From assembly GCA_013336275.1 (NCBI GenBank), contig JAAXUA010000003.1, forward strand, positions 2,698 to 66,697: a DNA stretch of 64,000 nt. The letters are read 5' to 3'. This document shows, piece by piece, positions 1,630 through 48,915 of the stretch. The notes below the pieces were generated by a model. The model made no database searches. It had not been told where the DNA came from and was given only the letters and a program-made list of their open reading frames with translations. The stretch is from Candidatus Falkowbacteria bacterium. GTDB lineage: Bacteria; Patescibacteriota; Patescibacteriia; Patescibacteriales; GWE2-39-37. The translations under genes and the position numbers were made by a program. Position 1 is the first letter of the stretch, and each line of letters begins with the position of its first letter.

Positions 1630-3768
1630 ATGAACTTCTTCGCGTTAACGGCCCTATGGAACTCGATCGCGCTTCTCGGCCTTGCGGCCTGGATTATCAC
1701 CAAGGGCTTTTCCAAACCAGCATATCGTAACATCGCCTACACAGTGCTCTGTGTCGCCTTGTGGTCTTTTGGCTACTTCTTGTGGCAGACTGCTCCGAAT
1801 ATCTACATGGCCGAGGCCTACCTCAGGCTGATGATGTTCTGGGTGATGTTCATACCGCTTTTCTTCATCAGATACATCCTTTTCTTGGTCGGCCAAATGC
1901 ATCAACGGCGGCTTGGCCTAGCTAGCACATACTTCTTTTCGGTGTTATTTTCCCTGGCTACGCTCGACGGACTTTTGAGCAACGGCGTGAACGCCGGCAC
2001 GGGCTACTTGCGCTACTACCCGATTCCAGGCCCGCTATTCGTTCCTTTCATAATTTATTTCATGGCTTACCTGGTTTATGCGATCGCAATAATGATCAAG
2101 GCCTCCGAAAATGCCAGCCCAATCGACCGCCTAAAAAACAGGTACGTTCTTATCGGCGTAGCGGTGGCCTATACTTTCAATATCACCAACTACATCAGCT
2201 GGTATACCCACGACTTCCCGCCAATAGGCAACCTTTTCATGGCAGCCTCTTTTTTTGTGGTGGTCTACGGTATCATTGCCAGGCACATCTTCGATATCCG
2301 GCTAATCGCTCGCCGCTCGACCATCAGGATCGTCTGGTTCACTTGCGTTCTGGCCATAGCCCTTTACATAAAAATGGCCATCTCCGAACTCTTCGGGAAT
2401 ACGCCTTGGGCCGACATCATAATGCTGCTTTCAGCTTTCGCACTTTATTCGCCTTTCAAAAAATATGCCGAAAAGATTGCCAGCACTTACCTATTCACCT
2501 CACTCTACAACCGAAGCCAACTATTGTCAGCCTTAAGCGACCGGCTTGCCGCCAACCTTGACGCCAGAGCGATTTCTAAGGAAGTCGAAGAATTGCTCGC
2601 ACCAGCTTTCTACCATGACGGCATGATCGTATTGGTCTTTGATTCCAACAGCAATCTATCAGTGGTCTACAACCGCCAACTCAACCCATCATCTGAAGCT
2701 CCGATCAGGCCGGACTCATCTCTTAACAAGATTTTGAAATCGAGCAAGCCGTTCCTGCTTGATGAGATGCTGTCTGACACCAGCAAAAAGCACCCTGCGC
2801 TACGGACGATAAAAAGCATGGGCGCAGAAATCATCATCCCCCTGAATTTGAAAAGCAAGCTGGTCGGCCTGATCGCCCTTGGACCCAAGAAAAGCCGCGA
2901 AGTTTATGACGACGACGATCTCTCCTTGCTGCGCACCGTCGGCGAACAAGTCGCTTTCGCCCTGGAAAACTCACGCCTTCACCAGGAAGTGGCCCAGTTC
3001 AACCAGACGCTGCAGCAACGGGTCAACGAGCAGACCAAAGACATAGTCGCCAAAGCCGAGCATCTCAAAAAATTGATGGAGATGCGAGGCGAATTTCTGG
3101 ATATCGCCTCCCATCAGCTCCGCACCCCCGTTTCGGTAATGAAAGGTGTTTTGAGCATGCTTGAGGAAGGTTCGGTGCCGGCCGCGAAAAGAAAAAGTTT
3201 CATCAGCGGCGCCATGGAAAAGGCCGTCAAACTTGGTGATGTTATCAACGATATTCTCAGGGCCTCTGAAATCGATAGCGACCATTTCACTTTCGACTTG
3301 ATGCCCGTCCAGCTGAACGCCATCATCAATAAGATAAGGCCGGACAAGGAGCGAGCGGCGGAGCTAAAAAAGATCAAACTCATATTCGACTTGCCGGCCA
3401 AACCTTTTCCTCCGGTCCTGGGAGACGAACGCTATCTTGAGCATGCCCTAGTCGATATGATAAACAACGGCATACAATACACGCAGCAAGGTCAGGTTAC
3501 GGTGTCGGCCAGACAAGAGAACGGCTGCATTATCATCCGTGTAATCGATACCGGCATCGGCATACCGGCAGAAGACCTGCCCAAACTATTCAAGAAGTTC
3601 AGCCGGGCCAAAAATGCTGTCGAAGCCCACGCCGATGGTACCGGATTGGGCCTATTTATCATTAAGAAGGTAGTGGATTTCATACCCGGAGCCTCGATCC
3701 TAGTGGAAAAAACCGGAATTAACGAAGGCACTACCGTTGCCTTAAAACTGCCTTTGGCTAAAAAATAA
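1630..3768 (+). CDS. sensor histidine kinase (multi-TM N-terminal sensor, GAF-like middle, HisKA and HATPase_c)
   Basis: About 7 or more hydrophobic helices occupy the first ~290 aa. The H-box is EFLDIASHQLRTPV. N/G boxes are DMINNGIQYT, IDTGIGIP and GTGLGLFI. No response regulator is adjacent. Confidence 0.85.
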   Translation: MNFFALTALWNSIALLGLAAWIITKGFSKPAYRNIAYTVLCVALWSFGYFLWQTAPNIYMAEAYLRLMMFWVMFIPLFFIRYILFLVGQMHQRRLGLASTYFFSVLFSLATLDGLLSNGVNAGTGYLRYYPIPGPLFVPFIIYFMAYLVYAIAIMIKASENASPIDRLKNRYVLIGVAVAYTFNITNYISWYTHDFPPIGNLFMAASFFVVVYGIIARHIFDIRLIARRSTIRIVWFTCVLAIALYIKMAISELFGNTPWADIIMLLSAFALYSPFKKYAEKIASTYLFTSLYNRSQLLSALSDRLAANLDARAISKEVEELLAPAFYHDGMIVLVFDSNSNLSVVYNRQLNPSSEAPIRPDSSLNKILKSSKPFLLDEMLSDTSKKHPALRTIKSMGAEIIIPLNLKSKLVGLIALGPKKSREVYDDDDLSLLRTVGEQVAFALENSRLHQEVAQFNQTLQQRVNEQTKDIVAKAEHLKKLMEMRGEFLDIASHQLRTPVSVMKGVLSMLEEGSVPAAKRKSFISGAMEKAVKLGDVINDILRASEIDSDHFTFDLMPVQLNAIINKIRPDKERAAELKKIKLIFDLPAKPFPPVLGDERYLEHALVDMINNGIQYTQQGQVTVSARQENGCIIIRVIDTGIGIPAEDLPKLFKKFSRAKNAVEAHADGTGLGLFIIKKVVDFIPGASILVEKTGINEGTTVALKLPLAKK

Positions 3769-3919: not shown

Positions 3920-3948
3920 TTGACAATATCCTATTTTTATGCTATATT
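3920..3948 (+). promoter_or_regulatory. sigma70-like promoter
   Basis: TTGACA (3920-3925), a 17-nt spacer, then TATATT (3943-3948). It lies about 150 nt upstream of ATG 4099. Confidence 0.65.
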
Positions 3949-4098
3949 GATACATTAAATTGGCCGTGATGTGCCCACACCACCCTCCCTTGAGGGTTTT
4001 CTGAATATAGCCGTTTTCCAGATCACGGTCCGATTCGGACCTTAAAAATTTAACGAAACCAAAGAAACTACCAGACTCGTCCTAAGGAGGGACACACC

Positions 4099-6036
4099 AT
4101 GGCCAAGATTATCGAATTTACCCAGATTGCAGCGACCAAACAGGGCCGCGAACACGAAGTTAAGGTGACCGTCAAGGTGACTGAAAACGGTAACCCGGTC
4201 GTAAACAAGCCGGTTACCAGATCAATCAACCAAGGGAGCCTCAGAAACCCGAAGATGACTAACGCGTCCGGCTTTCTTGAATTCGTTTTCAAGACAAGCG
4301 ACCGCCAAGTCAAATTCACTGTTGAGTGCGAAGGCGAGCAGTACAGCCAAGACATCGTGGTCAAAAACCACATTGCCAACGCTCCTGCAACTGCCCCAGC
4401 CACCAACCCAGCCCCCGCAACTTCACCCGCTTCATCGGCTGCCCCGACGACAACTCCTGCCCAACCGCAGAACATTCTCGGCGCCAAAGAGCATATCGAT
4501 GCCAAAGGCAACTGCAAAATCGTTGTCCGAGTCATCGATTCGACTGGCAAGGGCGTCAAGACCGACGCCACCATCGAAGCCGAAGGAACGCTTCACCAGA
4601 TCAAGACCGACAAGCAGGGTAATGTCACTTTCGACTACCCGCGCGTCATCAAGATCGGCGAATCGATCAAGGTGAACGTCTACGCTCCCGGCATCGTAGC
4701 AGCGAAGGAGCTCACGCTCGCTCGCGCAGCTGCCGTGCCACAGGCAAAGGCAACTCTCGAGGCCGATGTGTTGAACAACGGCCGAGGCAGGTTCTCCGTC
4801 AAAATCCGCATCACCGATGCGGCTGGCAACGGAGTTCCGACGTCAGCTTGGCTCTCAGCTGAAAACCAGCGCCACGAGGTCAAGACTGACAAGCATGGGG
4901 AAGCGATATTCAACTACCCCAGGCCAATCGCCGCCAACGAAGTCGTCCGCGCCATCGTTTCGGTGTCGGGAATAACTGAGCAAAAGTCTTTGACTCTCTC
5001 ACATGTTCCTCTGCCGAAAACCGATCCGGTAAACCTCGTCCTCCGCCAAAGCCATGACGGCAACGGCAACTTCACGGTCTTCGTCCGAGTTACCGACAGC
5101 ACCGGCAACGGCCTGGCAGAAGTAGTGACTCTCAGTTACTTCGACCGCCTGATTCCGATCAGGACCGATTGCCATGGCCAGGCATCCTGGCAGTGCCCGG
5201 ACAACATCCAGCCTGGCAATGAAGCCGTCGTAAACGCCGCGGTATCGGGAATCACCGACACTGCAACCATCAAGCTCTGCCGCCGCGATTCGCTGCCGCC
5301 GCTGCCTCCGAAATATCACTGGAGATGGTGGCTCTGCACCAACAACGGTCGCGCAGTCATCGGCCTGCTCGTCATGCTCATGCTCTGGGTCAAGTGCTTC
5401 TCAGCTATCTCCGAGGTGCCGATCATCCAAAAACCGACCCAAAAGACGGTAGCTGAACACAACTACGACGAAGTGACCAAGCTTGTCGAAGCTGCACGCA
5501 AGACCAAGCTGACTCCAGAACAAGCCGCGAAAATGGACATCAACCAGTTCGCGAAGGAACCGAACTTCATCAGCCAGCCGCTACCGCCGGACCCGAAGGT
5601 CAAAAAACCTGAAGGGCATGGTAAGCTTTATGTCTTCACTCTTCTCTGGACTTTGATCGCCCTAGCCTACGCCCCTCTTTCGATGAGGGAAGAATTCTGG
5701 GGTACGATCCAGGAAGTAAAAGACGAGCTCAGGCCCGATGAAACCAAGGCCGGAGATGGTCTAATGGACAAGGTGTCCAGCTGGCTCAACCCGCAACAAC
5801 CCAGCCAGCCAGCGCAACCCCCTGCGCCTCCCGCTCCCGCAGCTACGCCTGTAGTCTCCACAGCGCCCGCCCAACCCGCCCAGACGCAATCAGGCAATCA
5901 AGCAGAAGCTGAGGAACGGAAGGACGTAAAGGACATCAAGAAGAAAGTAAGTTTCATGGAGCAATTCAAGGTTGAGATTCTCGCAGAAATCCTTATGGCA
6001 GCAGTCCCCAAAATACTCTCGCGTTGGTTCCGATAG
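4099..6036 (+). CDS. membrane protein with four N-terminal Ig-like/beta-sandwich repeats, two TM helices and Pro/Ala-rich linkers
   Basis: AAGGAGG lies upstream of the ATG. Internal repeats: GNCKIVVRVIDSTGKGV..TDKQGNVTFDYP.., GRFSVKIRITDAAGNGV..TDKHGEAIFNYP.., GNFTVFVRVTDSTGNGL..TDCHGQASWQCP... TM helices are AVIGLLVMLMLWV and LYVFTLLWTLIALAY. There is no N-terminal signal peptide. Confidence 0.7.
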   Translation: MAKIIEFTQIAATKQGREHEVKVTVKVTENGNPVVNKPVTRSINQGSLRNPKMTNASGFLEFVFKTSDRQVKFTVECEGEQYSQDIVVKNHIANAPATAPATNPAPATSPASSAAPTTTPAQPQNILGAKEHIDAKGNCKIVVRVIDSTGKGVKTDATIEAEGTLHQIKTDKQGNVTFDYPRVIKIGESIKVNVYAPGIVAAKELTLARAAAVPQAKATLEADVLNNGRGRFSVKIRITDAAGNGVPTSAWLSAENQRHEVKTDKHGEAIFNYPRPIAANEVVRAIVSVSGITEQKSLTLSHVPLPKTDPVNLVLRQSHDGNGNFTVFVRVTDSTGNGLAEVVTLSYFDRLIPIRTDCHGQASWQCPDNIQPGNEAVVNAAVSGITDTATIKLCRRDSLPPLPPKYHWRWWLCTNNGRAVIGLLVMLMLWVKCFSAISEVPIIQKPTQKTVAEHNYDEVTKLVEAARKTKLTPEQAAKMDINQFAKEPNFISQPLPPDPKVKKPEGHGKLYVFTLLWTLIALAYAPLSMREEFWGTIQEVKDELRPDETKAGDGLMDKVSSWLNPQQPSQPAQPPAPPAPAATPVVSTAPAQPAQTQSGNQAEAEERKDVKDIKKKVSFMEQFKVEILAEILMAAVPKILSRWFR

Positions 6037-6045
6037 GAGGAAACC

Positions 6046-6885
6046 ATGAAGATGTTACCCGAACGCACCAAGCCCAGCGAAATCATCAAGCTTGCATTTC
6101 GCGCCACATTAGTCGGCATCCTGCTGGCAATAATCCTGCGCCTGACATTCGGCGTTCCGATGCTGATGGGCTTAACCGTCGTCATCACACTCGTCTTTCT
6201 CGACGGCTTCGTCGAAAGCTCGAAGTGGAAAGAGCGCCTCATCCGCGCCGGCATCGCGGTCTGTCTCATCGTAATAATGAACATTACAGTCTGGCCAATG
6301 GGAAAATCGCTTTTCGCTTCCTACTTCCCTATCGCCTCGGCAACGCTGGCAAGGGCCAAGATGGGCACCGAAATGTGGTTCGCCAAAAAGATCGACAGCC
6401 CCGCTGTCGAAGCCAAGAGCGAACTCTTCAGACACAACAAGGAATACGAGGAGAAAGATCTCACAAGAGAAGTTGGCATAAGACTCGCGGCCGGCGACAC
6501 CGAAGGCGCTGCGGAACTGATCCGCGCTCATCAAGAAAAACGGGCCAAGATCGAAGCCTCACTCAACCCGCAATCGAGCAGCAGTGCCGGTTCAAGCTTT
6601 ATGAACAAAACCAAAGGCTGGTTCGAAAGCAATAAACCAGCCAACATACCGCCGCTAAGAGGGCAAAATGTGCATCTGAGCCTAAAGGCCGGACAAGAAA
6701 CGAATTCGGCCAGCATACCGCTGGGCATGTTCTATGATTTTTATGCCTGCCCCAACTCCAAATTCATGCTCGTTTTACCTAGCGGGCAAGAACTTCACAT
6801 CGGACAGAAATGGCCCGAATTCCGTACATTCAAAATTATCGCATTGAGCGATGCCGAGATTGATCTCAAGCTTAAGGAAAGTTAA
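6046..6885 (+). CDS. membrane protein (3-4 N-terminal TM helices) with a C-terminal beta-domain shared with the next gene
   Basis: GGAGG precedes the ATG, 9 nt after the upstream stop. The C-terminus ...FKIIALSDAEIDLKLKES aligns with the C-terminus of 7071..8057. Confidence 0.65.
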   Translation: MKMLPERTKPSEIIKLAFRATLVGILLAIILRLTFGVPMLMGLTVVITLVFLDGFVESSKWKERLIRAGIAVCLIVIMNITVWPMGKSLFASYFPIASATLARAKMGTEMWFAKKIDSPAVEAKSELFRHNKEYEEKDLTREVGIRLAAGDTEGAAELIRAHQEKRAKIEASLNPQSSSSAGSSFMNKTKGWFESNKPANIPPLRGQNVHLSLKAGQETNSASIPLGMFYDFYACPNSKFMLVLPSGQELHIGQKWPEFRTFKIIALSDAEIDLKLKES

Positions 6886-6897
6886 AACACTTGAGCC

Positions 6898-6927
6898 GAG
6901 GGCGACACCCAGTCGCCCTCTTTTTTT
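6898..6927 (+). terminator. rho-independent terminator
   Basis: A GAGGGCGAC / GTCGCCCTC stem is followed by T7. Confidence 0.8.
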
Positions 6928-7070
6928 ATATTTCTTCAAAAAGCAAAACAAAGATAAACATTGACTTTTTTATATAAATATGTTTTATTTAAGATAATTT
7001 GCTCTATCTAAACCTCATAAACGGTTCATTAATCCAAAAAAAATAAAAAAACGAGAGGGAGGGTCTAGTC

Positions 7071-8057
7071 ATGAAAACGAGGTCGATTATCGTATCGGGA
7101 GTTTTCTTTTTTTTCGCCATTTTCTTTGGCACAACCGCTTCGGCAGCATCAATTAAGGATGCCGAGGGCTTCATGAAAGCCGGACAGTATCCCCAGGCCA
7201 TCGCCGTACTTGAAGGCATCACCGAAAAGAGTCCCACCAATGCCCTGGCCCAATATGAGCTTGGCAACTGCTACGCCATGACGAGAGACCTGAGGCGGGC
7301 TGAGGAGCGCTACAAGGCGGCCATCAAGCTTGATGCCAAATACGGTCAAAAAATCGCCAGCGTTTTCAAGCTGGCTGGCCGCGAGGCCTTAAATAATAAT
7401 CTTGCGCCAGAGGCCCAGGTTCTCTATTTTAAGGCAGTCGAATACCAGCCCTCTCTACGCCAGCCGCTGGCTGACGAACTTTACAAAGAAGGCGAGCGCC
7501 TAGTCATGAGTGGCCTGATCGGACTCGAAGACAGCAAATTTGCTGTTGCTGGATCACTCAGCCCCAAAACGGCAGACCAAATCTGCAAGCTTTATACGGG
7601 GATCGGGGACAAGGCTGACGATGACTCGTGTCCGCTCTTTTATCTTAAGGGGAGGAACTTCTGTCAGGGCTACAACGAAAAGACTGGTCAACGGTTAGTT
7701 GAAATCGCCAAAAGACTAGCCAAGCAGCCCGGACGAGAGGCGCAGACCAAGGTCTACAAGGATGTGGCCTCGATTTTTCTCGGCGACCGATATGTCGAAA
7801 AACAAGTGCCATCCATCTTAACGCTTGACCAAGACGGCTACCTCGGTTTTGAGCTAAAAGGAAATGAGCAATCTCCTTGGGTTAAGATCGGTTACGGTTC
7901 GTTCGAATTCAGCCATTCTCAGAACGCCGCTTACAAAATTGTTCTTGAAAATGGAAGTGAATATTCAATGAATGCTCCACTCCCCAAGATTGAGTGCAAC
8001 CTTAAGATCATAGCCCTTAAGGAAAGTGAGATATTCATCTCCTTCAAAAAAAAATAG
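7071..8057 (+). CDS. secreted TPR-repeat protein
   Basis: Signal peptide MKTRSIIVSGVFFFFAIFFGTTASAAS. TPR-like AGQYPQAIAVLEGI...ALAQYELGNCY...AEERYKAAIKLD. GAGGGAGGG lies upstream of the ATG. Confidence 0.7.
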   Translation: MKTRSIIVSGVFFFFAIFFGTTASAASIKDAEGFMKAGQYPQAIAVLEGITEKSPTNALAQYELGNCYAMTRDLRRAEERYKAAIKLDAKYGQKIASVFKLAGREALNNNLAPEAQVLYFKAVEYQPSLRQPLADELYKEGERLVMSGLIGLEDSKFAVAGSLSPKTADQICKLYTGIGDKADDDSCPLFYLKGRNFCQGYNEKTGQRLVEIAKRLAKQPGREAQTKVYKDVASIFLGDRYVEKQVPSILTLDQDGYLGFELKGNEQSPWVKIGYGSFEFSHSQNAAYKIVLENGSEYSMNAPLPKIECNLKIIALKESEIFISFKKK

Positions 8058-8082
8058 CCTCAACCTTTTTCAGAATGCATTT

Positions 8083-8115
8083 GCGCCCCGAGACATCGGG
8101 GCGCTTCTTTTTTTT
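8083..8115 (+). terminator. rho-independent terminator
   Basis: A GCGCCCCG / CGGGGCGC stem is followed by a long T-run. Confidence 0.85.
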
Positions 8116-8168
8116 AAAAAACTATGCTTTAATAATAAATAGGATACCTAAATTAAACGATAATCATT

Positions 8169-8597
8169 ATGGCGGAAAAAAAGTTTCTAAAAACCGCATT
8201 CGTCTTTATATCTTTTTTCTTTTTCGCCTTGGTTAGTACTGCCTCTGCTGCTACTTGCGCACCAGGCGTTCCGGTCGGCACCGGTGGTTGTACAGCCGCA
8301 GTAGTCGGCACAGGCGGGCAAGGAACAGGAGGAGCGGTATCCCTTACTCCCGCCGTCAATGTCGGAACGCCCCAACAGTTTATCGGCAAAATTATCAACA
8401 CTGCCTTGGGGGTTGTCGGCTCGCTGGCCTTGCTAATGTTCATCTATGGCGGCTTCACTTGGCTGACTAGCGCCGGCAGCGCTGACAAGGTCACTAAGGG
8501 CAAAAATATCCTAGTCTGGGCCGTTATCGGCTTAGTCGTCATCTTCATGTCCTACGGCGCAACCAAGTTCGTCTTGGACAAAATCACTGCAACCTAG
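8169..8597 (+). CDS. TrbC/VirB2-type pilin-like protein (paralog 1 of 8)
   Basis: Signal peptide, then a two-helix hairpin: ALGVVGSLALLMFIYGGFTWLTSAGSADKVTKGKNILVWAVIGLVVIF. The same core is present in seven other ORFs of the window. Confidence 0.75.
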   Translation: MAEKKFLKTAFVFISFFFFALVSTASAATCAPGVPVGTGGCTAAVVGTGGQGTGGAVSLTPAVNVGTPQQFIGKIINTALGVVGSLALLMFIYGGFTWLTSAGSADKVTKGKNILVWAVIGLVVIFMSYGATKFVLDKITAT

Positions 8598-9568: not shown

Positions 9569-10603
9569 TTATTGTTTTGAAATCATATTGCGCCCATATA
9601 ACGCCTTGGCCTCTTGCCAGAAGTCCGGACGATTATTAGTCGTCTTTTCCCAATACCACCACTCAACTCCCCAGAGATAGAATTCCCTGAACCCAGCCTG
9701 CTGGGCGAAATCAAGAATTTCCGTGAATTTCTGGGGACTCATCGTTTTGTCACGCTCCGCTTGGCTGACGTTCTGATATGGCACTGGTGCCCAAGGCTCG
9801 GCCTGAAGTTCAATCACGATCCAATTCTTGGGTTTGGCAAACAGGCTAGCTAGATTGCGCTTGGCACGGAAGAAGCCCGGGGTGATGGGGTAATGCACGT
9901 AGCTATTTAAAAAGCTGGAATAGGTATCGCGATACATCGTGGTCCCGAAGATATCAGCCCGTCTAGCAGCCGGAATCCAGAACGACAACTCCCCCGAATC
10001 AGTCACCACAATAGGCTTGCCTGGCACCATGTGACGCACCAAGGCGATTTCTTGGTCCAGAAAATCAGGATCCAATTCGGGGCACTCGCCGAAGTGGGAC
10101 AAGAATGGTTCGTTCTCCACCTGCCAGGCCACGATCGACGGGTTGTCCTTATAGCGATTGACCACCTGAGCGATATAATTCAATATCTTCTCCTCCCGTT
10201 CGCTTTTTGTCAAACCCTTAGTCCAATCCGGGAGATGGCATTCCGGCCAACGAGGCAGCCTCGCCCCAACTGCCAATATTACATTATTGCTGCGCGACCC
10301 GCTTTGATCCAAAAGCCAATCCAGCTCTTCCCATGAAGACTGCCCGTTGGCCGGCTCGACTTCATCCCAATAAGCCGAAAGCCGCCAATTCTTGATTTTA
10401 AGATCGTCATTGGCGGCTAAAAATGTCTTTTGCCAGTCGAGTCCTAGCGCCCTAGCGTGTTTCGGCGAAAAGGTGGCGCCATAAGACAATTCATCGTGTC
10501 GATAGATCTTTCCGAAACTAAAAATCAACAAAACGACCAAGACTCCAAAAACTACTAGTCCGATATTCTTAAAAACCAAAAATCTATGCCACCATTTCAA
10601 CAT
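9569..10603 (-). CDS. membrane-anchored TIM-barrel glycoside hydrolase (clan GH-A, GH5-like)
   Basis: An N-terminal TM helix plus the catalytic-acid-type motif AWQVENEPF. Confidence 0.55.
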   Translation of the reverse strand: MLKWWHRFLVFKNIGLVVFGVLVVLLIFSFGKIYRHDELSYGATFSPKHARALGLDWQKTFLAANDDLKIKNWRLSAYWDEVEPANGQSSWEELDWLLDQSGSRSNNVILAVGARLPRWPECHLPDWTKGLTKSEREEKILNYIAQVVNRYKDNPSIVAWQVENEPFLSHFGECPELDPDFLDQEIALVRHMVPGKPIVVTDSGELSFWIPAARRADIFGTTMYRDTYSSFLNSYVHYPITPGFFRAKRNLASLFAKPKNWIVIELQAEPWAPVPYQNVSQAERDKTMSPQKFTEILDFAQQAGFREFYLWGVEWWYWEKTTNNRPDFWQEAKALYGRNMISKQ

Positions 10604-10604
10604 T

Positions 10605-11027
10605 TTAATGTCCAGGGCAGATCCAATTACCGGTATCTGACGTCACTTGCCAGACACAGCCAGTAACATAGGTGGACACGCCCCATGAGGCTAATATTAT
10701 TATCAAACCTATTACTCCGGCCGTAACTCGCTTCTTGGCTTCGCCGATTTTCGACGAATCTCCGCCCGAGGTCATCCATTGATAACCGGCATAAACCACT
10801 AAGACCGTAAAGATAATTCCCAGGAATCCGAGCAAGATATTGATCATCCTAGCTACGATTACCCTGATGTCCGTGGGGTCACCGCTTTGATTGTAAGCAT
10901 CATCACCGATCGTATCCAAACCGCCCTCCTTGACCGTATCAAGCAGGCCTCCGGCCTGGACTTGGTAGGCCAAAGAAAAACATAGCAAGATTAATAAAAA
11001 ACTGAGGGCGAATTTAGTTTTCCTCAT
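10605..11027 (-). CDS. TrbC/VirB2-type pilin-like protein (paralog 2 of 8)
   Basis: Signal peptide, then LLGFLGIIFTVLVVYAGYQWMTSGGDSSKIGEAKKRVTAGVIGLIIILASWG. It is closest to the 30247..30642 paralog. Confidence 0.75.
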   Translation of the reverse strand: MRKTKFALSFLLILLCFSLAYQVQAGGLLDTVKEGGLDTIGDDAYNQSGDPTDIRVIVARMINILLGFLGIIFTVLVVYAGYQWMTSGGDSSKIGEAKKRVTAGVIGLIIILASWGVSTYVTGCVWQVTSDTGNWICPGH

Positions 11028-20710: not shown

Positions 20711-20840
20711 TTTGGAGTTGACAAAAATCGTATTTTATGGAAGAATAAACTGATTTGCTCATTAAAAATCGCTATTCATAGCGAATTATTCGCATAAAGC
20801 ACTATACCATTTGAGTCAACTACCCCAAGGAGGTGGCAAA

Positions 20841-23249
20841 ATGCCCAAAAAGAAGAAAAACAGAGGCAAAAAGCAGAAAAAACAGGTCTCGCACGGCCAA
20901 TCCATGGCCCAGGCACTGGAGGAATTCCAACGCAAGCTGACGATTCCTGAGCTCTGGGAGGAGAGAAAGGAAAATTACAGGGAATCAGTCGAAGACAAGC
21001 TTTCCTTTAACTACAGGACCAAGGAACAGCTCATCATCAAAGAGGCGATGCTGCCGGCACTGACATTCTGGAAATTCATCAAGTCCCACGTCAGTGAGTA
21101 CGAACATTTCTGCTACGCTGACAACATCAACGAACGCCGAAGCTTCCTGCAGTCCTTTTTGTCCTCGGAAAACCGCTATGTCAGGCTCGTCGCCATGATC
21201 GAGCTGATGCCGATCGCCATCTGGCGCCGCATCCTGTGGCGCTCCAACATCGACTTCGTTTCCTACGAAAGCTTCTTGCGTCGCCTGCAGCCGGAACACT
21301 GGCTGGCAATCGAGTCTAACTTCGTCGATCTGTATAACGGACAGACACCCCGGATCCTCACCTCCAAGGAGGCGAGACTCCCGGAGTTCCAAGCCGAAAG
21401 CCTGTCCTCGGGCGAAGAGCGCGAACGCTGGCAGCGCCACATTTCCAAACCGGCCTGGACCAAGAACATGTTCAGCTTCGACTTCGGTTTCAACCGGTAC
21501 CCCGGAGGAGTCGACAACGACTCACCCGTCTTAAGCACGGTCGATCGACGCCGCCTGCACTCCAGCGACAACACCAAAGACTTCGTCGTCGACACCGAAT
21601 TCGGACGCTACATGAGGCTTTACCGCTCGGCACGATCGAACTACGTCGTCTTCCCGAACAAGACTGTCGAACTCAAGACGCACATCTGCCCCGGCTACTG
21701 GGCCACCATCCTGATCCATCTTATGTTCTGGATCGTCTCCCCGGCCATGACCGCCGGCCTGCTCGCCACCGCCTCGTCCAACCGTCTGCCGTGGTGGGCC
21801 AATGTCTTGCTGGCGATTCCTGCCGTCATCACGCCGCTGTGGCTATTCTGCGCTGGAGTCAAGTTTTCCTGGATCCGGTTCAATCGCTGGATCGACAACC
21901 GCGCCATCAAGTGGATCAAGTCGACAAGCATCAGCATCGAAACCTTCTGTAAGAAACACCCTCGCGGAACCGAATTGGCGGCGGGCACATTTTTCTCGCT
22001 CGCAATCGGCATTGCCGTCTTCGCCCTCTCCCAGCTTTGTCTGGGCGTCTACAATGGCGTCCTAGCAGGCGCAGCCGCCTCGGCCTACGTCGGCTACAAG
22101 ATCAGCCGTATCGGCGAAGAAAAAACGCCGATGCCGATGCACCTATTCATCCCGCTCTACACAGCTTGCCTCTACTTGGGCGGCTTGCTGGCGATCAAGT
22201 GGTCACCGTATCTGGTCAAAGGCTTGGCTTGGGTCGCAAAATACGCGGTCAAACTGTTCACCGAATGGATACCGTACGCCTGCGTCCAGATTTATGAATT
22301 CCTCTCCTGGTTGTGCATGCTAGCTGCCGGCGCCTTCATGAACTATGTCGTTCCGGCGCTCAAGTATCTCCTGATCGGCATGCTTTCCGTCGGTCTCTTC
22401 TGGCTCGTAGCACTGGTCCCGCTGGCGCTCATGGGCATACTTTATTTCGCCTATTGCCGGCTGCCGAAAGAAACGCAGACCAACCTCGACTATCTGATCG
22501 AAAAAGTCTGCTTCTACAGCATCTTCGTAATTTTCGGAGCAATGGCCCTGGGCTGTATCGTAATCTCTTTCCTGGAGGGCGGGTCGTTCTTGTCTGGCCA
22601 GACGCTGGCCGGCATCATGGTCATCGGCATCATTTCAGCTACCGCAGCTTTCTGGACCCGGATGATGGCCCAGGAAATGAATCCCGAAATCAAGCAGCTC
22701 AAAGAAGAGACCTACGCCATCCGCGGCAACATGCGGCTGAGCGGCCTCTTCAACTACCGCTACCTGGTCGAGAACCGCTGGTTCAGCCCGTTGACGCTTG
22801 AGCAGAAAACCGAGCTGGCCACCAAGATCGACCGCTTCGTCGTCAATGTCGTCCCGTCGCACCAAGAAGCTGCAGCCATCGCTTTGATCATGAGGAGTAT
22901 CAATAGCTTCGAGGCTCTGGACAAACTTGTCGCCGCCGAAGATTCCTTCCACAACCTCTACGAAGAGCACCGGTTACCGATCATCGAGATTATGCTCAAG
23001 AAATCGGTCGGCGTAAGAGAGGCTCAGGTCCTTTACCATAAGCAGCGGGAAAAATCGAAGAAGAATGCGGAACTTGGCATCATCATCGCCAAAACAGTAT
23101 TCTCTCCCATCTACTTCCCCTGCATGTTCCTGTGGTGGCTCGGCAGCAAGATCTGCACCGGCTTGCAGCACCTGCTCGACTTCCGTCGCATGGCCAAAGC
23201 TATCAGGGATTTCTGTCCCTACATCATCAAACCGGAGTATCTCGAATAA
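20841..23249 (+). CDS. large orphan polytopic membrane protein (about 802 aa)
   Basis: AAGGAGGT precedes ATG 20841. A Lys-rich N-terminus is followed by a ~290-aa soluble region, ~10 TM helices, a ~150-aa soluble region and a terminal TM helix. I recognise no motif. Confidence 0.65.
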   Translation: MPKKKKNRGKKQKKQVSHGQSMAQALEEFQRKLTIPELWEERKENYRESVEDKLSFNYRTKEQLIIKEAMLPALTFWKFIKSHVSEYEHFCYADNINERRSFLQSFLSSENRYVRLVAMIELMPIAIWRRILWRSNIDFVSYESFLRRLQPEHWLAIESNFVDLYNGQTPRILTSKEARLPEFQAESLSSGEERERWQRHISKPAWTKNMFSFDFGFNRYPGGVDNDSPVLSTVDRRRLHSSDNTKDFVVDTEFGRYMRLYRSARSNYVVFPNKTVELKTHICPGYWATILIHLMFWIVSPAMTAGLLATASSNRLPWWANVLLAIPAVITPLWLFCAGVKFSWIRFNRWIDNRAIKWIKSTSISIETFCKKHPRGTELAAGTFFSLAIGIAVFALSQLCLGVYNGVLAGAAASAYVGYKISRIGEEKTPMPMHLFIPLYTACLYLGGLLAIKWSPYLVKGLAWVAKYAVKLFTEWIPYACVQIYEFLSWLCMLAAGAFMNYVVPALKYLLIGMLSVGLFWLVALVPLALMGILYFAYCRLPKETQTNLDYLIEKVCFYSIFVIFGAMALGCIVISFLEGGSFLSGQTLAGIMVIGIISATAAFWTRMMAQEMNPEIKQLKEETYAIRGNMRLSGLFNYRYLVENRWFSPLTLEQKTELATKIDRFVVNVVPSHQEAAAIALIMRSINSFEALDKLVAAEDSFHNLYEEHRLPIIEIMLKKSVGVREAQVLYHKQREKSKKNAELGIIIAKTVFSPIYFPCMFLWWLGSKICTGLQHLLDFRRMAKAIRDFCPYIIKPEYLE

Positions 23250-28051: not shown

Positions 28052-28492
28052 CTACGGCGAACCGGTCATACCGCCACCTCCGCTATCAACAACTGAATCC
28101 AGGTTAGAGAAAACGAAATAGGTGATCGAATAGGCCGCCAAGACTATGATCAGGCCGATCACTGCTCGCGAAATGGTATTTTTGGCTTTGGTAATCTTAG
28201 TCTCATCACCACCGGCTGTCATCCAACTATAACCTGAATAAACGATCAATACGACAAAAATTATACCCAGAAGACCGATGAAGGCCTTGATGGCTGTGGC
28301 TACGATTGTCGCTACGCCATCCTTGGTTGTTGATTCATAGCCAGCCGTCTCGCGCAGGGCCTTCTGCTGGTTGAACATACCGCTCTTGGCTTGGTCGGAA
28401 ATAAGACTAAGAGCATTGGCGCTGGCAGAGTTGAATAATATGCAGCCCCAGATAAGCAAAAAAACGATTTTTTTGTTAAGAATATTTTTCAT
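28052..28492 (-). CDS. TrbC/VirB2-type pilin-like protein (array gene 6)
   Basis: The start is set at MKNILNKK... Core: FIGLLGIIFVVLIVYSGYSWMTAGGDETKITKAKNTISRAVIGLIIVLAAYSI. Confidence 0.75.
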   Translation of the reverse strand: MKNILNKKIVFLLIWGCILFNSASANALSLISDQAKSGMFNQQKALRETAGYESTTKDGVATIVATAIKAFIGLLGIIFVVLIVYSGYSWMTAGGDETKITKAKNTISRAVIGLIIVLAAYSITYFVFSNLDSVVDSGGGGMTGSP

Positions 28493-28494
28493 AA

Positions 28495-28875
28495 TCAGAT
28501 CATAGCGGCTGAAATCCAGACCCAGATCGCATATGCACCGACCGTGATAATCAAGCCGATAACTGCCCGCCACAGAGTCTCTTTCGCCTTATCGACTTTG
28601 CCGCTGTCGCCAGCAGCGGTCATCCAATTGTAGCCTGAATAGACGATCAAAACGATAAAGATGATGCCTAATAGGCTCAAAAATGCGCTTATAACTTGCC
28701 CAATAAACCTGGCCATGGTGAACTTGTCAGCAACTTCATAACCACCCGACAATGCGACATTGTCCATCCTGCCGAACAGGGATCTTGTTTCAGCTGCTAT
28801 AGCCTTGCTGGCGACAGAAAAACTTAACAATATTGCGGCCAAAGAAAATCCTAGTTTTTTTATGGAATTGGTCAT
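28495..28875 (-). CDS. TrbC/VirB2-type pilin-like protein (array gene 5)
   Basis: Core: LSLLGIIFIVLIVYSGYNWMTAAGDSGKVDKAKETLWRAVIGLIITVGAYAI. Confidence 0.75.
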   Translation of the reverse strand: MTNSIKKLGFSLAAILLSFSVASKAIAAETRSLFGRMDNVALSGGYEVADKFTMARFIGQVISAFLSLLGIIFIVLIVYSGYNWMTAAGDSGKVDKAKETLWRAVIGLIITVGAYAIWVWISAAMI

Positions 28876-28876
28876 T

Positions 28877-29320
28877 TTATTGAATGTCTCCTTTTAACGT
28901 TTTTTCGGCCAGAGTCCTGACGACAAAGTAGCTGATGGCATAAGCAGCGAGCACCACGATCAGCCCGATCGTGGCCCGTGTTATGGTATTTTTGGCCGTA
29001 TCCACCTTGCCACTATCGCCAGCGGCAGTCATCCAATTATAACCGCCGTAGATGATCAGAAGCAAAAAGATGACTCCGATAAATTCGAGCGCCGTCTGGA
29101 TTATCGTAGCGATAATCGGATCAAGGCTTTCGTTCTCTGTTTCAATATTATACCCCGATTTGTCCGCCACTTCATCAAGGGGGGTTCTGCCGTCTCCGCT
29201 AGTGCTGTCTGTCGTACCGAAAGCATCTTTCAGATTAGCGCCCAGAACCAAGCTAGGAGCAAATGCCAAAAAAGACAAGAATAAAAACGCGATTACATTG
29301 TTTATCAGCCGTCTTTTCAT
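28877..29320 (-). CDS. TrbC/VirB2-type pilin-like protein (array gene 4)
   Basis: The start is set at MKRRLINN... Core: LEFIGVIFLLLIIYGGYNWMTAAGDSGKVDTAKNTITRATIGLIVVLAAYAI. Confidence 0.75.
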   Translation of the reverse strand: MKRRLINNVIAFLFLSFLAFAPSLVLGANLKDAFGTTDSTSGDGRTPLDEVADKSGYNIETENESLDPIIATIIQTALEFIGVIFLLLIIYGGYNWMTAAGDSGKVDTAKNTITRATIGLIVVLAAYAISYFVVRTLAEKTLKGDIQ

Positions 29321-29324
29321 ATAT

Positions 29325-29714
29325 TTATTGGACCAAGTTACCTTTAAGATTATTTGCAACGAAAGCAGTAATGGAGTAAGCCGCCAACACCACAACCAAC
29401 CCGACAAGGGCGCGAGTTATGATTTTCTTGGCCAGCACGACTTCTGAGTCGTTGCCGTTGGCCATCATCCAGCGATAACCGCCGTATATCATTAGCCCTA
29501 AAAACAATACGCCGACAAAGCTGATTATAATGCTGATGACCTGTGCGACCCTTTGAGACAGGGTTTCTTCCGGGTTGGCCGCTGTCGTATCATAACCGCT
29601 AGGAGTGGCTGTCTTGTTCAACCCAGTACTTTCAGCGAAACTGTAAGCCAATACGCTATTGCCGACTGTTAGCATCGCTAGTCCTACAAGAAAAAAAGCT
29701 AAAAACTTTTTCAT
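29325..29714 (-). CDS. TrbC/VirB2-type pilin-like protein (array gene 3)
   Basis: Core: ISFVGVLFLGLMIYGGYRWMMANGNDSEVVLAKKIITRALVGLVVVLAAYSI. Confidence 0.75.
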   Translation of the reverse strand: MKKFLAFFLVGLAMLTVGNSVLAYSFAESTGLNKTATPSGYDTTAANPEETLSQRVAQVISIIISFVGVLFLGLMIYGGYRWMMANGNDSEVVLAKKIITRALVGLVVVLAAYSITAFVANNLKGNLVQ

Positions 29715-29718
29715 AGCG

Positions 29719-30138
29719 TTATTCCGGCGTAGCGGTTAGCGATCCACCCACAAAAGAAGTGATGGCATAAGCGCTTAAAACAATGATTAAGCCGATAGTA
29801 GCGTTGATTATCAGCTCTTTGGCCTTGGCCACTTTCTGATCATTGCCCTGGGCCGTCATCCACATCAAGCCGCCGTAAACGATCAATACAAAAAATATGA
29901 CGCCGACGTAGGATAAGACTATGCCTATTACGCTACCCACCCTGGTGGAAATGTCCTCTTTATTTTGTTGTGACTGCGGGTTAAAAGAATCTCCCCCGTT
30001 TGGTATGGCCGTAGCAGTCTCGTTCAGCCCACCATCGAACGCCAAGGCAGGCAATACAGCGAAAAACAAGGAATAAGCCAACAAAAATAAAACGGCCAAC
30101 TTATTCGCATGCCTCGATATTGAAGTCGCAAAAATCAT
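29719..30138 (-). CDS. TrbC/VirB2-type pilin-like protein (array gene 2)
   Basis: Core: LSYVGVIFFVLIVYGGLMWMTAQGNDQKVAKAKELIINATIGLIIVLSAYAI. Confidence 0.75.
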   Translation of the reverse strand: MIFATSISRHANKLAVLFLLAYSLFFAVLPALAFDGGLNETATAIPNGGDSFNPQSQQNKEDISTRVGSVIGIVLSYVGVIFFVLIVYGGLMWMTAQGNDQKVAKAKELIINATIGLIIVLSAYAITSFVGGSLTATPE

Positions 30139-30167
30139 AAATGAGTGAAGGAATTAGTTCGATTATC

Positions 30168-30210
30168 CTGCATTGGTGCGGCCGCAAATCTTGCGGGCGC
30201 GCCAATGCAG
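30168..30210 (-). other. GC-rich intercistronic stem-loop
   Basis: CTGCATTGGTGCGGCCGC-AAATCTT-GCGGGCGCGCCAATGCAG forms about 17 bp with one mismatch. It lies in the only sizeable gap (108 nt) of the pilin array. No T-run follows on the minus strand. Confidence 0.7.
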
Positions 30211-30246
30211 AGTAAAAACTCTGCATTGAACGTATATTCCAAAAAA

Positions 30247-48908: not shown

Positions 48909-48915
48909 ATCCGAA

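What the first reader, a model, noticed from the sequence alone, without database searches (positions are those of the whole stretch)
3920..8057. Orphan three-gene envelope locus with strong promoter and unusual topology
A near-consensus promoter (TTGACA-17-TATATT) and a leader of about 150 nt drive two tightly linked genes, 4099..6036 and 6046..6885. After a terminator and an AT-rich gap comes 7071..8057.

Gene 1 has four ~75-85-aa beta-sandwich-like repeats (aa ~18-88, 131-207, 219-300, 311-393; nt 4150-4362 and 4489-5277). Their conserved core is G-x-F/C-x-V-x-[VI]-R-[VI]-[TI]-D-[SA]-x-G-x-G...[TK]-D-x-x-G-x-[AV]-x-[FW]-x-[YC]-P. It has no signal peptide. These repeats are followed by PPLPP, two TM helices, Pro/Ala/Gln-rich low-complexity linkers and a terminal amphipathic helix.

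Putting ~400 aa of Ig-like repeats at a signal-less N-terminus is odd. Either they are cytoplasmic or they are exported by a non-Sec route.

Gene 2 is a multi-TM protein and gene 3 is a Sec-exported TPR protein. I recognise none of the three as a known family. This is the best candidate in the window for an undescribed envelope-associated complex.
Basis: partly seen in the sequence, partly recalled or inferred. Interest (0 to 1): 0.6.

Follow-up and report, generated by a model that had tools for sequence, protein, structure and literature searches.

The report
Pilin-linked membrane gene pair in Patescibacteria
Two uncharacterised membrane proteins, one carrying a chain of antibody-like domains that most likely hangs inside the cell, are always encoded next to one particular conjugation-type pilin gene in ultra-small (CPR) bacteria, which suggests an undescribed part of their surface-filament machinery.

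Summary
The window comes from a Candidatus Falkowbacteria (CPR/Patescibacteria) genome.

- **Gene 1 is not an orphan.** An exhaustive profile search found about 80 sequence clusters with one architecture. It has no signal peptide, roughly two to four Big_1/macroglobulin-like beta-sandwiches, a two-helix membrane hairpin and a conserved C-terminal helix. The membrane part matches no Pfam, NCBIfam or PDB entry.
- **The domain array is probably cytoplasmic.** Across the family, charge bias around the first membrane helix favours an N-terminus inside (48 members against 4). Four clusters carry zinc-finger-like motifs at the extreme N-terminus.
- **The conserved unit is gene 1, gene 2 and a pilin, not genes 1-3.** In six other lineages and three genomic contexts, a gene 1 homolog is followed by a gene 2 homolog. 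A terminator and a promoter follow, and then one highly conserved VirB2-like pilin (window 8169-8597).
- **Gene 3 is a lineage-specific insertion.** It is an exported TPR protein. Its C-terminal beta domain is homologous to that of gene 2.
- **The promoter is conserved.** A near-perfect promoter and a long leader precede gene 1 in every lineage.

My best reading is an undescribed membrane module dedicated to this pilin. Its function is inferred, not shown.

The parts
3920..3948 (+). Sigma-70-type promoter TTGACA-17-TATATT with a TG extension, driving genes 1 and 2
   Evidence: 11 of 12 positions. Invariant in L001 and L003. 11-12/12 equivalents precede the gene 1 homologs in L010, L012, L014, L015 and L016.
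3949..4098 (+). Leader of about 145-150 nt, with AGGAGG at 4085-4090
   Evidence: No Rfam match. The fold is not exceptional (z -1.77). Long leaders of 87-159 nt are conserved across lineages. The transcription start is not determined.
4099..6036 (+). Gene 1 (645 aa): four beta-sandwiches without a signal peptide, a two-helix membrane hairpin and a C-terminal tail
4105..4359 (+). Gene 1 beta-sandwich 1 (aa 3-87). It passes Pfam Big_1 and is the fastest-evolving part (28% identity to close homologs).
4471..5280 (+). Gene 1 beta-sandwiches 2-4 (aa 125-208, 219-301, 312-394). They are mutually homologous, and conservation rises toward the membrane (41-52%, 63-65%, 71-73%).
5347..5685 (+). Gene 1 membrane hairpin: TM1 (aa 417-443, preceded by W..NNGRA), a conserved ~66-aa loop and TM2 (aa 510-529, followed by LS.REE)
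5899..6033 (+). Gene 1 C-terminal helix (aa 601-645), ending in the family motif P.I..R.FR
6046..6885 (+). Gene 2 (279 aa): three N-terminal membrane helices (aa ~11-88), a helical region and a C-terminal beta domain (aa ~204-279; nt 6655-6882)
6898..6920 (+). Intrinsic-terminator-like hairpin with a T-run after gene 2
   Evidence: 9 pairs, 7 of them G-C.
7071..8057 (+). Gene 3 (328 aa): signal-peptide-like N-terminus, TPR-like helical solenoid (aa 28-245) and a beta domain (aa 249-327; nt 7815-8051) homologous to that of gene 2. Lineage-specific insertion.
8083..8104 (+). Intrinsic-terminator-like hairpin with a T-run after gene 3
   Evidence: 9 pairs, 8 of them G-C. The weak Rfam ncS54 hit at 8055-8112 is this hairpin.
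8125..8133 (+). Extended -10 promoter-like element TGCTTTAAT for the pilin gene
   Evidence: Aligns with TGnTATAAT in nine loci, each time just after a terminator. Read from the sequence. Not tested.
8169..8597 (+). VirB2-like pilin (142 aa, PF18895), the conserved third member of the module
   Evidence: 41.3 bits against a cut-off of 26.6. Signal peptide plus two hydrophobic helices. Its ortholog follows the gene 2 homolog in every lineage. The core is 58-63% identical where genes 1 and 2 are 22-28% identical.

Best explanation
Genes 1 and 2 encode a conserved pair of cytoplasmic-membrane proteins that belong functionally with one particular VirB2-like (type IV secretion-type) pilin.

**Shown**
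- The order gene 1, gene 2, terminator, promoter, pilin is kept across deep divergence and different genomic contexts.
- Strong promoters precede both transcription units.

**Inferred topology**
- Gene 1 has its N-terminus inside. Its two to four macroglobulin/Ig-like beta-sandwiches and its C-terminal tail are cytoplasmic. Only a conserved loop of about 50-70 residues is outside.
- Gene 2 has its N-terminus inside, crosses the membrane three times, and displays a helical region and a small beta domain outside.
- Gene 3, found only in this lineage, is secreted. It carries the same beta domain on a TPR scaffold, so it probably docks at the same external site as gene 2.

**Inferred function**
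- The five membrane helices of genes 1 and 2 form a platform that holds, matures or feeds the Sec-inserted two-helix pilin into a surface filament or conduit.
- The cytoplasmic beta-sandwich stalk acts as a spacer or docking arm for a cytoplasmic partner such as a VirB4/VirD4-type ATPase.
For: **Family**
- 83 cluster representatives at E <= 1e-3 share the gene 1 architecture, and 60 reach E <= 1e-10.

**Synteny**
- A gene 1 homolog is followed 9-39 nt later by a 267-283-aa protein, then by PF18895 pilin gene(s).
- This holds in L010/L011, L012, L013, L015 and L016, in three genomic contexts: the window's, downstream of trmD; gyrB-epimerase-TIM; and recG...cysS.
- L016 has a VirD4/TraG-like coupling protein about 2.5 kb downstream of the pilin.
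- A profile built only from the five distant downstream proteins hits the window's gene 2 alone among all window ORFs (E 3.4e-12).
- There is one gene 1 and one gene 2 per locus.

**Pilin**
- The adjacent pilin is one ortholog group. Its core is 58-63% identical between the window and distant loci, where genes 1 and 2 are 22-28% identical.
- The window's other pilin at 10605-11027 is only 28% identical to it.

**Topology**
- None of the 61 full-length members analysed has a hydrophobic segment in its first ~60 residues, so none carries a classical N-terminal signal peptide; the N-termini are polar.
- K+R counts in the 15 residues flanking TM1 are 3.38 on the N side against 1.48 on the C side. 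The N side is higher in 48 members and lower in 4.
- Four clusters have a CCCC or CCCH motif in the first 25-40 residues.
- The beta domain shared by genes 2 and 3 (hhalign probability 98%, E 7.5e-14) comes out on the outside in both. In gene 3 this follows from the signal peptide. In gene 2 it follows from three helices with a basic N-terminus.

**Expression signals**
- 11-12/12 consensus promoters precede gene 1 in all lineages.
- A terminator plus an extended -10 element precede the pilin in nine loci.

**Literature context**
- VirB2-like pilins are peculiar to Patescibacteria among monoderms and are essential in the one species tested (PMC12102498, PMC12857230, PMC10633639).
Against: - There is no direct evidence of any physical or functional interaction. 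The pilin is a separate transcription unit.
- The window holds no VirB4/VirD4 among the ORFs scanned.
- The window has seven other PF18895 pilin genes that lack such neighbours.
- Genes 1 and 2 evolve far faster than the pilin core. That is not what tight intramembrane contact would predict.
- Big_1 and macroglobulin folds are normally extracytoplasmic.
- The domain furthest from the membrane evolves fastest, and an Ala/Pro/Thr-rich linker follows it. Both resemble surface adhesins.
- TM2 shows no charge bias (2.13 against 2.11).
- The topology rests on hydropathy and charge counts, not on a dedicated predictor or an experiment.
- The taxonomy of the distant loci could not be established.
Confidence: 0.4

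Rival explanations
1. The gene 1 beta-sandwich array is extracellular. It is exported without a classical signal peptide, either by reverse signal-anchor insertion or by a T4SS-related or other non-Sec route. It then forms a membrane-anchored adhesin or S-layer-like stalk with a variable tip.
For: - Big_1/macroglobulin-type folds are typically extracytoplasmic.
- Identity rises from the distal to the proximal domain: 28%, 41-52%, 63-65%, 71-73%.
- An Ala/Pro/Thr-rich linker follows domain 1.
- All neighbouring gene products are envelope proteins.
- Very strong promoters are typical of abundant surface proteins.
- The conserved basic C-terminus could be imagined as a secretion signal.
Against: - None of the 61 full-length members analysed has a hydrophobic segment in its first ~60 residues.
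- Charge bias at TM1 favours N-in, 48 members to 4.
- Four clusters carry zinc-finger-like CCCC/CCCH motifs at the extreme N-terminus.
- To my knowledge, no mechanism is known for translocating 200-400 residues N-terminal to a membrane helix without a signal peptide in bacteria.
Confidence: 0.13
2. Genes 1 and 2 (plus gene 3 here) form an envelope complex whose job is unrelated to the pilin, such as membrane organisation, cell-wall or polysaccharide handling, or division. They merely sit next to the pilin because of an old, slowly decaying gene order among highly expressed genes.
For: - The pilin has its own terminator-promoter boundary.
- The module is bracketed by tRNA genes in several lineages, i.e. 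a region of highly expressed genes.
- Polysaccharide and glycosyl-transfer genes are nearby in the window.
- Genes 1 and 2 diverge far faster than the pilin.
Against: - Adjacency survives in three otherwise different genomic contexts and at 22-28% identity of genes 1 and 2.
- Adjacency is always to the same pilin ortholog, although these genomes carry many pilin paralogs.
- When gene 3 was inserted, it went between gene 2 and the pilin's own upstream region, leaving that region intact.
Confidence: 0.22
3. One reading: a self-contained, orphan three-protein complex made of genes 1, 2 and 3.
For: - The three genes are adjacent in the window and in close relatives L001, L002 and L003.
- Genes 2 and 3 share a homologous beta domain.
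Against: - Gene 3 is absent from between gene 2 and the pilin in L010, L012, L013, L015 and L016.
- The distant gene 3 homolog in L005 has no gene 1 or gene 2 nearby.
- Gene 1 has about 80 homologous clusters.
Confidence: 0.08
4. The cytoplasmic stalk of gene 1 is a tether. Its tip is a zinc finger or an Asn/Gln/Gly/Pro/Lys-rich disordered tail. The tip binds nucleic acid or another cytoplasmic cargo and holds it at a pilin-based conduit.
For: - N-terminal CCCC/CCCH motifs occur in four clusters, and polar, Lys-containing disordered N-termini occur in most others.
- The number of beta-sandwiches varies, as expected for a spacer.
- A VirD4-like coupling protein lies near the module in L016.
Against: - The window protein itself has neither a tail nor a zinc finger; it starts directly with the first strand.
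- No nucleic-acid-binding domain was detected by Pfam.
- This reading is purely speculative.
Confidence: 0.07

Closest known systems
Accessory and platform proteins of VirB2/TraA/TrbC-type pilins in type IV secretion systems (TraQ, TraX, TraF, VirB6)
   Same: These are small or polytopic cytoplasmic-membrane proteins encoded next to a two-helix, Sec-inserted pilin. They are needed to mature it or feed it into a filament (my knowledge of F, RP4 and R388 systems). Here two membrane proteins are likewise fixed next to a PF18895/TrbC-like pilin.
   Different: No sequence relationship was detected to any of them or to any T4SS structure in the PDB. None of the known factors carries a cytoplasmic array of Ig-like domains. 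The module lies away from any VirB4 locus in the window.
Big_1 (invasin/intimin) and macroglobulin (alpha-2-macroglobulin, complement C3) tandem beta-sandwich arrays
   Same: Same fold class and the same beads-on-a-string arrangement. Big_1 passes its Pfam cut-off for repeat 1. Foldseek matches C3/A2M macroglobulin arrays at E 7.6e-12.
   Different: Those arrays are exported and have signal peptides, beta-barrel or lipid anchors, and thioester or bait regions. Here there is no signal peptide, and the inferred location is cytoplasmic. There is also a C-terminal two-helix membrane module, and no A2M or thioester domains. Global TM-scores are low (0.14-0.18).
Inner-membrane scaffold proteins of secretion machines with cytoplasmic beta-sandwich (FHA-type) domains, such as T3SS SctD (PrgH/YscD) and T7SS EssC/EccC
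   Same: A works-like analogy from my own knowledge: an N-terminal cytoplasmic beta-sandwich next to membrane helices, serving as a docking point for cytoplasmic components.
   Different: The fold family differs (macroglobulin/Ig-like, not FHA), no homology was detected, and the copy number varies. This was not tested beyond Pfam and PDB searches.
TPR accessory proteins of pili and envelope machines (PilW/PilF, BamD)
   Same: Gene 3 is an exported TPR solenoid. Foldseek lists PilW (2vq2), PilF (2ho1) and BamD (3qky) among many generic TPR hits.
   Different: These are generic TPR similarities with TM-scores of about 0.25. NCBIfam scores are far below cut-off (PilW 24.6 against 154). The signal sequence has no lipobox cysteine. 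Gene 3 also has an extra C-terminal beta domain shared with gene 2.
The Patescibacterial T4SS with VirB2-like pilin arrays (Southlakia epibionticum; Quinonero-Coronel et al. 2025)
   Same: Same phylum and the same pilin family, PF18895. The window also has a six-gene pilin array (PMC12102498, PMC10633639).
   Different: In the passages of the T4SS papers I read, the component lists do not name the gene 1 and gene 2 families. Here the pilin is a single, highly conserved ortholog with its own dedicated neighbours.

Membership tests
Pfam Big_1 (PF02369), bacterial Ig-like domain group 1 | Profile score above the gathering cut-off | tested here: met
   39.2 bits against a cut-off of 34.9, aa 20-77 of gene 1. 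11 of 52 family members match at E <= 0.01.
Invasin/intimin-type adhesins | Signal peptide, an N-terminal beta-barrel anchor and an exported Ig-like array | tested here: not met
   No signal peptide. No barrel domain by Pfam. NCBIfam intimin scores 9.6 bits against a cut-off of 1400.
Alpha-2-macroglobulin / complement C3 superfamily | Macroglobulin domains scoring above cut-off, plus bait and thioester domains | tested here: not met
   MG4 scores 23.4 against 24.7, and bMG3 22.2 against 34.9. No thioester or A2M domains were found. The fold-level match covers only the beta-sandwich array.
VirB2/TrbC-like T4SS pilin (PF18895), for ORF 8169-8597 | Profile score above cut-off, with a signal peptide followed by two hydrophobic helices separated by a short basic loop | tested here: met
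   41.3 bits against a cut-off of 26.6. Hydrophobic segments at aa 4-31, 71-100 and 108-137. Orthologs are aligned.
Known T4SS membrane subunits (VirB3, VirB6, VirB8, VirB10, PrgH/I/L, TraQ), for genes 1 and 2 | Detectable homology to family profiles or to solved subunits | tested here: not met
   No Pfam or NCBIfam hit. No PDB hit with the profiles A3, A6, A2 or A9. CONJScan profiles and HHpred were not available.
TPR repeat proteins (PF14559 TPR_19), for gene 3 | Profile score above cut-off and a helical-repeat fold | tested here: met
   35.6 bits against a cut-off of 25. The AlphaFold model has pLDDT 87 with 13 helices over aa 28-245.
PilW/PilF-type type IV pilus TPR lipoproteins, for gene 3 | Family-specific profile score and a lipoprotein signal with a lipobox cysteine | tested here: not met
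   TIGR02521 scores 24.6 bits against a cut-off of 154. The signal region ...FFGTTASAAS... contains no cysteine.
Sec-exported protein, for gene 1 | N-terminal signal peptide: basic n-region, hydrophobic h-region and a cleavage site | tested here: not met
   The N-terminus is MAKIIEFTQIAATKQGREHE. No hydrophobic segment occurs before aa 417. An in-frame stop at 4051 excludes an upstream start. None of the 61 full-length homologs analysed has a hydrophobic segment in its first ~60 residues. SignalP and DeepTMHMM were not available.
New family proposed here: 'beta-sandwich array + NNGRA-TM1 / TM2-LS.REE hairpin' proteins | No signal peptide; beta-sandwich(es); W..(T)NNGRA before TM1; LS.REE after TM2; C-terminal helix ending P.I..K.F; followed by a gene 2-like gene and a PF18895 pilin | tested here: met
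   In the window protein, NNGRA is at aa 415, LSMREE at 527 and ...VPKILSRWFR at the C-terminus. Alignment A6. Synteny.

The most novel reading that the evidence does not exclude
The 200-400-residue Ig-like array of gene 1 and its family really is displayed outside the cell, despite lacking any signal peptide. That would mean these bacteria translocate a large folded-domain region N-terminal to a membrane helix by a route not yet described. The route might be linked to the VirB2-type pilin or T4SS encoded alongside. The array would then be the variable adhesin of that filament.
Probability: 0.1. Interest if true: 0.85.

Novelty: new variant of a known kind. Interest (0 to 1): 0.6.

Why it matters
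VirB2-like pilins set Patescibacteria apart from all other single-membrane bacteria. They are essential in the one species tested genetically (PMC10633639, PMC12857230). How a conjugation-type pilin is handled without an outer membrane, often far from virB4, is unknown.

A two-gene membrane module is fixed next to one highly conserved pilin ortholog and driven by a near-perfect promoter. This gives concrete, testable candidates for the missing handling or anchoring machinery. If the inferred topology holds, it would also be an unusual case of macroglobulin/Ig-like domains, normally surface folds, used as a cytoplasmic array on a membrane protein. Both gene families are currently unannotated 'hypothetical proteins'.

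Tried and rejected
- **Riboswitch or known RNA in the leader.** No Rfam match was found in the window or in four distant loci. The fold is not exceptional (z -1.77). The consensus structure across lineages is weak.
- **Phage origin.** There are no PHROG hits for genes 1 and 2, and only TPR-type hits of unknown function for gene 3.
- **Upstream start hiding a signal peptide.** This is excluded by an in-frame stop at 4051 and by conserved 'MA...' N-termini.
- **Homology between genes 1 and 2.** None was found (hhalign probability 0.4%).
- **Solved-structure relatives.**
  - For gene 1, only low-complexity or marginal Ig-like hits appeared.
  - For gene 2 there was nothing significant. Three Gram-positive pilin backbone proteins appear at E 0.02-0.9 for the beta domain. 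This is a lead only.
- **Collection scans.** The genome scan returned only the relative already in hand. Two metagenome scans returned nothing.
- **Taxonomy of the distant loci.** It could not be obtained from cluster names.
- **T4SS ATPase genes.** None was found among the window ORFs scanned.

Full report
**What is in the sequence**

- The promoter TTGACA-17-TATATT at 3920-3948 matches 11 of 12 consensus positions and has a TG extension.
- The region as a whole has no excess of promoter-like sites: 5 against 4.0 +/- 2.1 in shuffles.
- The ATG at 4099 follows AGGAGG by 8 nt. An in-frame stop at 4051 excludes a longer N-terminus.
- Terminator-like hairpins with T-runs follow gene 2 (6898-6920) and gene 3 (8083-8104).
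- The gene 1 product is 100% identical to a 'hypothetical protein' of a Candidatus Falkowbacteria MAG. The window is therefore from a CPR/Patescibacteria genome.

**The three proteins**

Gene 1:
- It passes Pfam Big_1 at aa 20-77 (39.2 bits against a cut-off of 34.9). It has sub-threshold matches to CarboxypepD_reg, MG4 and bMG3.
- AlphaFold2, run with only three sequences, gives four beta-sandwiches at aa 3-87, 125-208, 219-301 and 312-394. Their pLDDT is about 70-82. The membrane and tail parts are poorly modelled.
- Foldseek matches the array to the macroglobulin-domain arrays of complement C3 and alpha-2-macroglobulin. The best E-value is 7.6e-12, with low global TM-scores.
- Repeats 2-4 are clearly homologous to each other (E 1e-12 to 4e-20). 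Repeat 1 is not significantly similar to them.
- Hydrophobic helices lie at aa 417-443 and 510-529. There is no N-terminal hydrophobic segment.

Gene 2:
- It has three hydrophobic helices in its first ~90 residues and no family match.

Gene 3:
- It has a signal-peptide-like N-terminus and passes TPR_19.
- Its model is confident (pLDDT 87, pTM 0.70): a helical solenoid at aa 28-245 followed by an eight-stranded beta domain at aa 249-327.
- Its structural matches are generic TPR proteins.

- The C-terminal ~75 residues of gene 2 and gene 3 are homologous. BLASTP gives E 8e-5. The profile-profile comparison gives probability 98% and E 7.5e-14.

**Gene 1 is not an orphan**

- The word-indexed search found only two relatives besides the protein itself.
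- An exhaustive HMMER search with the three-sequence profile found 83 cluster representatives at E <= 1e-3 and 60 at E <= 1e-10.
- Apart from fragments and a few repeat-only hits, they share one architecture:
  - an N-terminus that usually starts 'MA' and is rich in Asn/Pro/Ala/Thr/Gln/Gly/Lys, without a hydrophobic signal;
  - beta-sandwiches, about two to four judged from the length before TM1;
  - 'W..(T)NNGRA' running into TM1;
  - a loop of median 51 residues;
  - TM2 followed by 'LS.REE';
  - a helical acidic segment and a low-complexity stretch;
  - a C-terminal helix ending 'P.I..K.F'.
- The membrane module matches nothing in Pfam or among solved structures.

**Which side of the membrane?**

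Three family-wide observations favour a cytoplasmic N-terminus.
- None of the 61 full-length members analysed has a hydrophobic segment in its first ~60 residues, and the N-termini are polar.
- The 15 residues before TM1 carry 3.38 Lys+Arg on average, against 1.48 after it. The N side is richer in 48 members and poorer in 4.
- Four clusters (P0053, P0062, P0071, P0089) begin with C-x4-9-C-x10-22-C-x2-[CH]. This is a zinc-finger-like motif of the kind normally found inside cells.

With two helices, the C-terminal tail would also be inside.

Gene 2 gives an independent consistency check. A basic N-terminus plus three helices puts its C-terminal beta domain outside. That is the same side as the homologous domain of the signal-peptide-bearing gene 3.

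Several observations point the other way:
- TM2 shows no charge bias.
- The fold class is usually extracytoplasmic.
- Against close homologs, identity rises from 28% in repeat 1 to 71-73% in repeat 4. That pattern resembles surface adhesins.

I rate 'cytoplasmic' at roughly 0.7. It is an inference.

**The conserved unit**

- Close relatives (L001, L002, L003) keep genes 1, 2 and 3 followed by a PF18895 pilin. They also share the whole neighbourhood, so they say little on their own.
- L007 keeps gene 3 and the pilin. Its gene 3 is cut off at the contig end, so whether genes 1 and 2 lie upstream cannot be seen there.
- The informative loci are distant. Around P0032, P0049, P0024, P0059 and P0084, the gene 1 homolog is 23-28% identical to the window's.
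- In each, it is followed 12-39 nt later by a 267-283-aa protein, and about 100-110 nt after that by PF18895 pilin gene(s).
- This holds in two further genomic contexts: gyrB-epimerase-TIM and recG...cysS.
- L016 has a VirD4/TraG-like coupling protein about 2.5 kb downstream of the pilin.
- A profile built only from those five downstream proteins picks out the window's gene 2 alone among all window ORFs (E 3.4e-12).
- Every locus has exactly one copy of each gene.
- Gene 3 is absent from these loci. A different, membrane-anchored TPR protein sits a few genes upstream in three of them.
- The only distant gene 3 homolog (35% identity, L005) has no gene 1, gene 2 or pilin nearby.

**The pilin**

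- ORF 8169-8597 passes PF18895 (41.3 bits against a cut-off of 26.6). It has a signal peptide and two hydrophobic helices.
- The pilins that follow gene 2 (or gene 3) in all lineages form one ortholog group. The core is 58-63% identical between the window and the distant loci, while genes 1 and 2 are 22-28% identical.
- The window's other nearby pilin (10605-11027, minus strand) is only 28% identical to it.
- The window holds eight PF18895 genes in all, including a six-gene tandem array at 28052-30642 on the minus strand. Only one of the eight has these neighbours.

**Expression signals**

- A TTGACA-17-(TG)-TATAAT promoter matching 11-12 of 12 positions precedes the gene 1 homolog in every lineage examined. 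Leaders are 87-159 nt.
- In the window's relatives the promoter is invariant.
- In nine loci the stretch before the pilin has the same layout: a terminator hairpin with a T-run, then an extended -10 'TGnTAtAAT', then an AT-rich leader without an obvious Shine-Dalgarno sequence.
- Genes 1-2 and the pilin are therefore separate, strongly promoted units whose order is nonetheless preserved.
- Gene 3 appears to have been inserted upstream of the pilin's own control region.

**Interpretation**

Shown:
- a conserved module of gene 1, gene 2 and one pilin ortholog;
- a new protein family for gene 1 and another for gene 2;
- a shared external beta domain in genes 2 and 3.

Inferred:
- the topology;
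- that genes 1 and 2 form a membrane platform dedicated to this pilin (holding, maturing, assembling or anchoring it);
- that the cytoplasmic beta-sandwich stalk serves as a spacer or docking arm.

The literature I could search describes VirB2-like pilins as a peculiarity of the Patescibacterial T4SS and as essential in Southlakia. In the passages I read, the component lists do not name these two families (PMC12102498, PMC12857230, PMC10633639).

I put the pilin-module reading at about 0.4. The main rival, at about 0.2, is an unrelated envelope function with inherited adjacency. An exported array is at about 0.1-0.15.

**Verdict**

This is an undescribed envelope module. It is not orphan, it is not the trio as drawn, and its third conserved member lies just outside the reported coordinates.
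- Novelty: a new variant within the known world of T4SS-type pilin systems.
- Interest: 0.6.

Noticed in passing
window 28052-30642 (minus strand): A tandem array of six PF18895 VirB2-like pilin genes, all above the Pfam cut-off. A glycosyltransferase and a methyltransferase lie next to it on the high-coordinate side. With 8169-8597 and 10605-11027, the window holds eight pilin genes.
   Followed up: partly
window 8105-8171, and the equivalent stretch in L001, L002, L007, L010, L012, L013, L015, L016: The region upstream of the conserved pilin has the same layout in nine loci: a terminator hairpin with a T-run, an extended -10 TGnTAtAAT, then an AT-rich leader with no visible Shine-Dalgarno sequence before 'TATG'.
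   Followed up: partly
L010 6884-7003, L012 6841-7003, L015 6855-7003 (leaders of gene 1 homologs): These leaders share the motif AGGTGTnnnnGGCAAnnGTTGTTCATTAACAA, which includes a small hairpin. There is no Rfam match, and covariation support from five sequences is weak.
   Followed up: partly
window 1630-3768: A histidine kinase with a 7TM sensor, GAF, HisKA and HATPase domains sits between trmD and gene 1 only in the window. Relatives L001 and L003 have a 182-aa minus-strand gene there instead. No response regulator was looked for.
   Followed up: no
L001/L004 (GCA_964443495.1, contig CAYUCS010000003.1): The record title says 'uncultured Gammaproteobacteria bacterium'. Yet the contig is syntenic with the Falkowbacteria window over more than 10 genes, at about 53-70% protein identity for genes 1-3 and the pilin. 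The label looks wrong.
   Followed up: no
L010, L012, L015, L016: The module of gene 1, gene 2 and pilin is bracketed by tRNA genes in these lineages. Examples are L015 6677-6749 upstream with 10118-10201 downstream, and L016 9630-9703 with 9787-9859 downstream. This is not so in the window.
   Followed up: no
window 43938-49082 (-), 20811-23249 (+), 34033-35649 (-): Large ORFs of 1714, 812 and 538 aa have no Pfam match at E <= 1e-5.
   Followed up: no
P0086 (4021 aa) and P0097 (1837 aa): Giant proteins without a signal peptide or membrane helix carry up to 28 stretches matching the gene 1 beta-sandwich profile. Both end in a similar C-terminal motif (...FTDIEQ[VF]I).
   Followed up: no
gene 2 aa ~198-271 (window 6637-6858): The profile of the beta domain shared by genes 2 and 3 gives weak, non-significant hits to three Gram-positive sortase-pilin backbone proteins (6bbw E 0.024; 7f7y; 4s3l). 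The domain could not be fold-searched on its own.
   Followed up: partly
gene 1 aa 358-366 (window 5170-5196): 'DCHGQASWQCPDN' in beta-sandwich 4 is invariant among the close homologs. It has two cysteines and a histidine. A disulfide or a metal site is possible, and either would bear on the localisation question.
   Followed up: no
L010 and L015, position 1 to ~2600 (minus strand): The gyrB genes next to the distant modules carry an intein (Pfam Intein_splicing).
   Followed up: no
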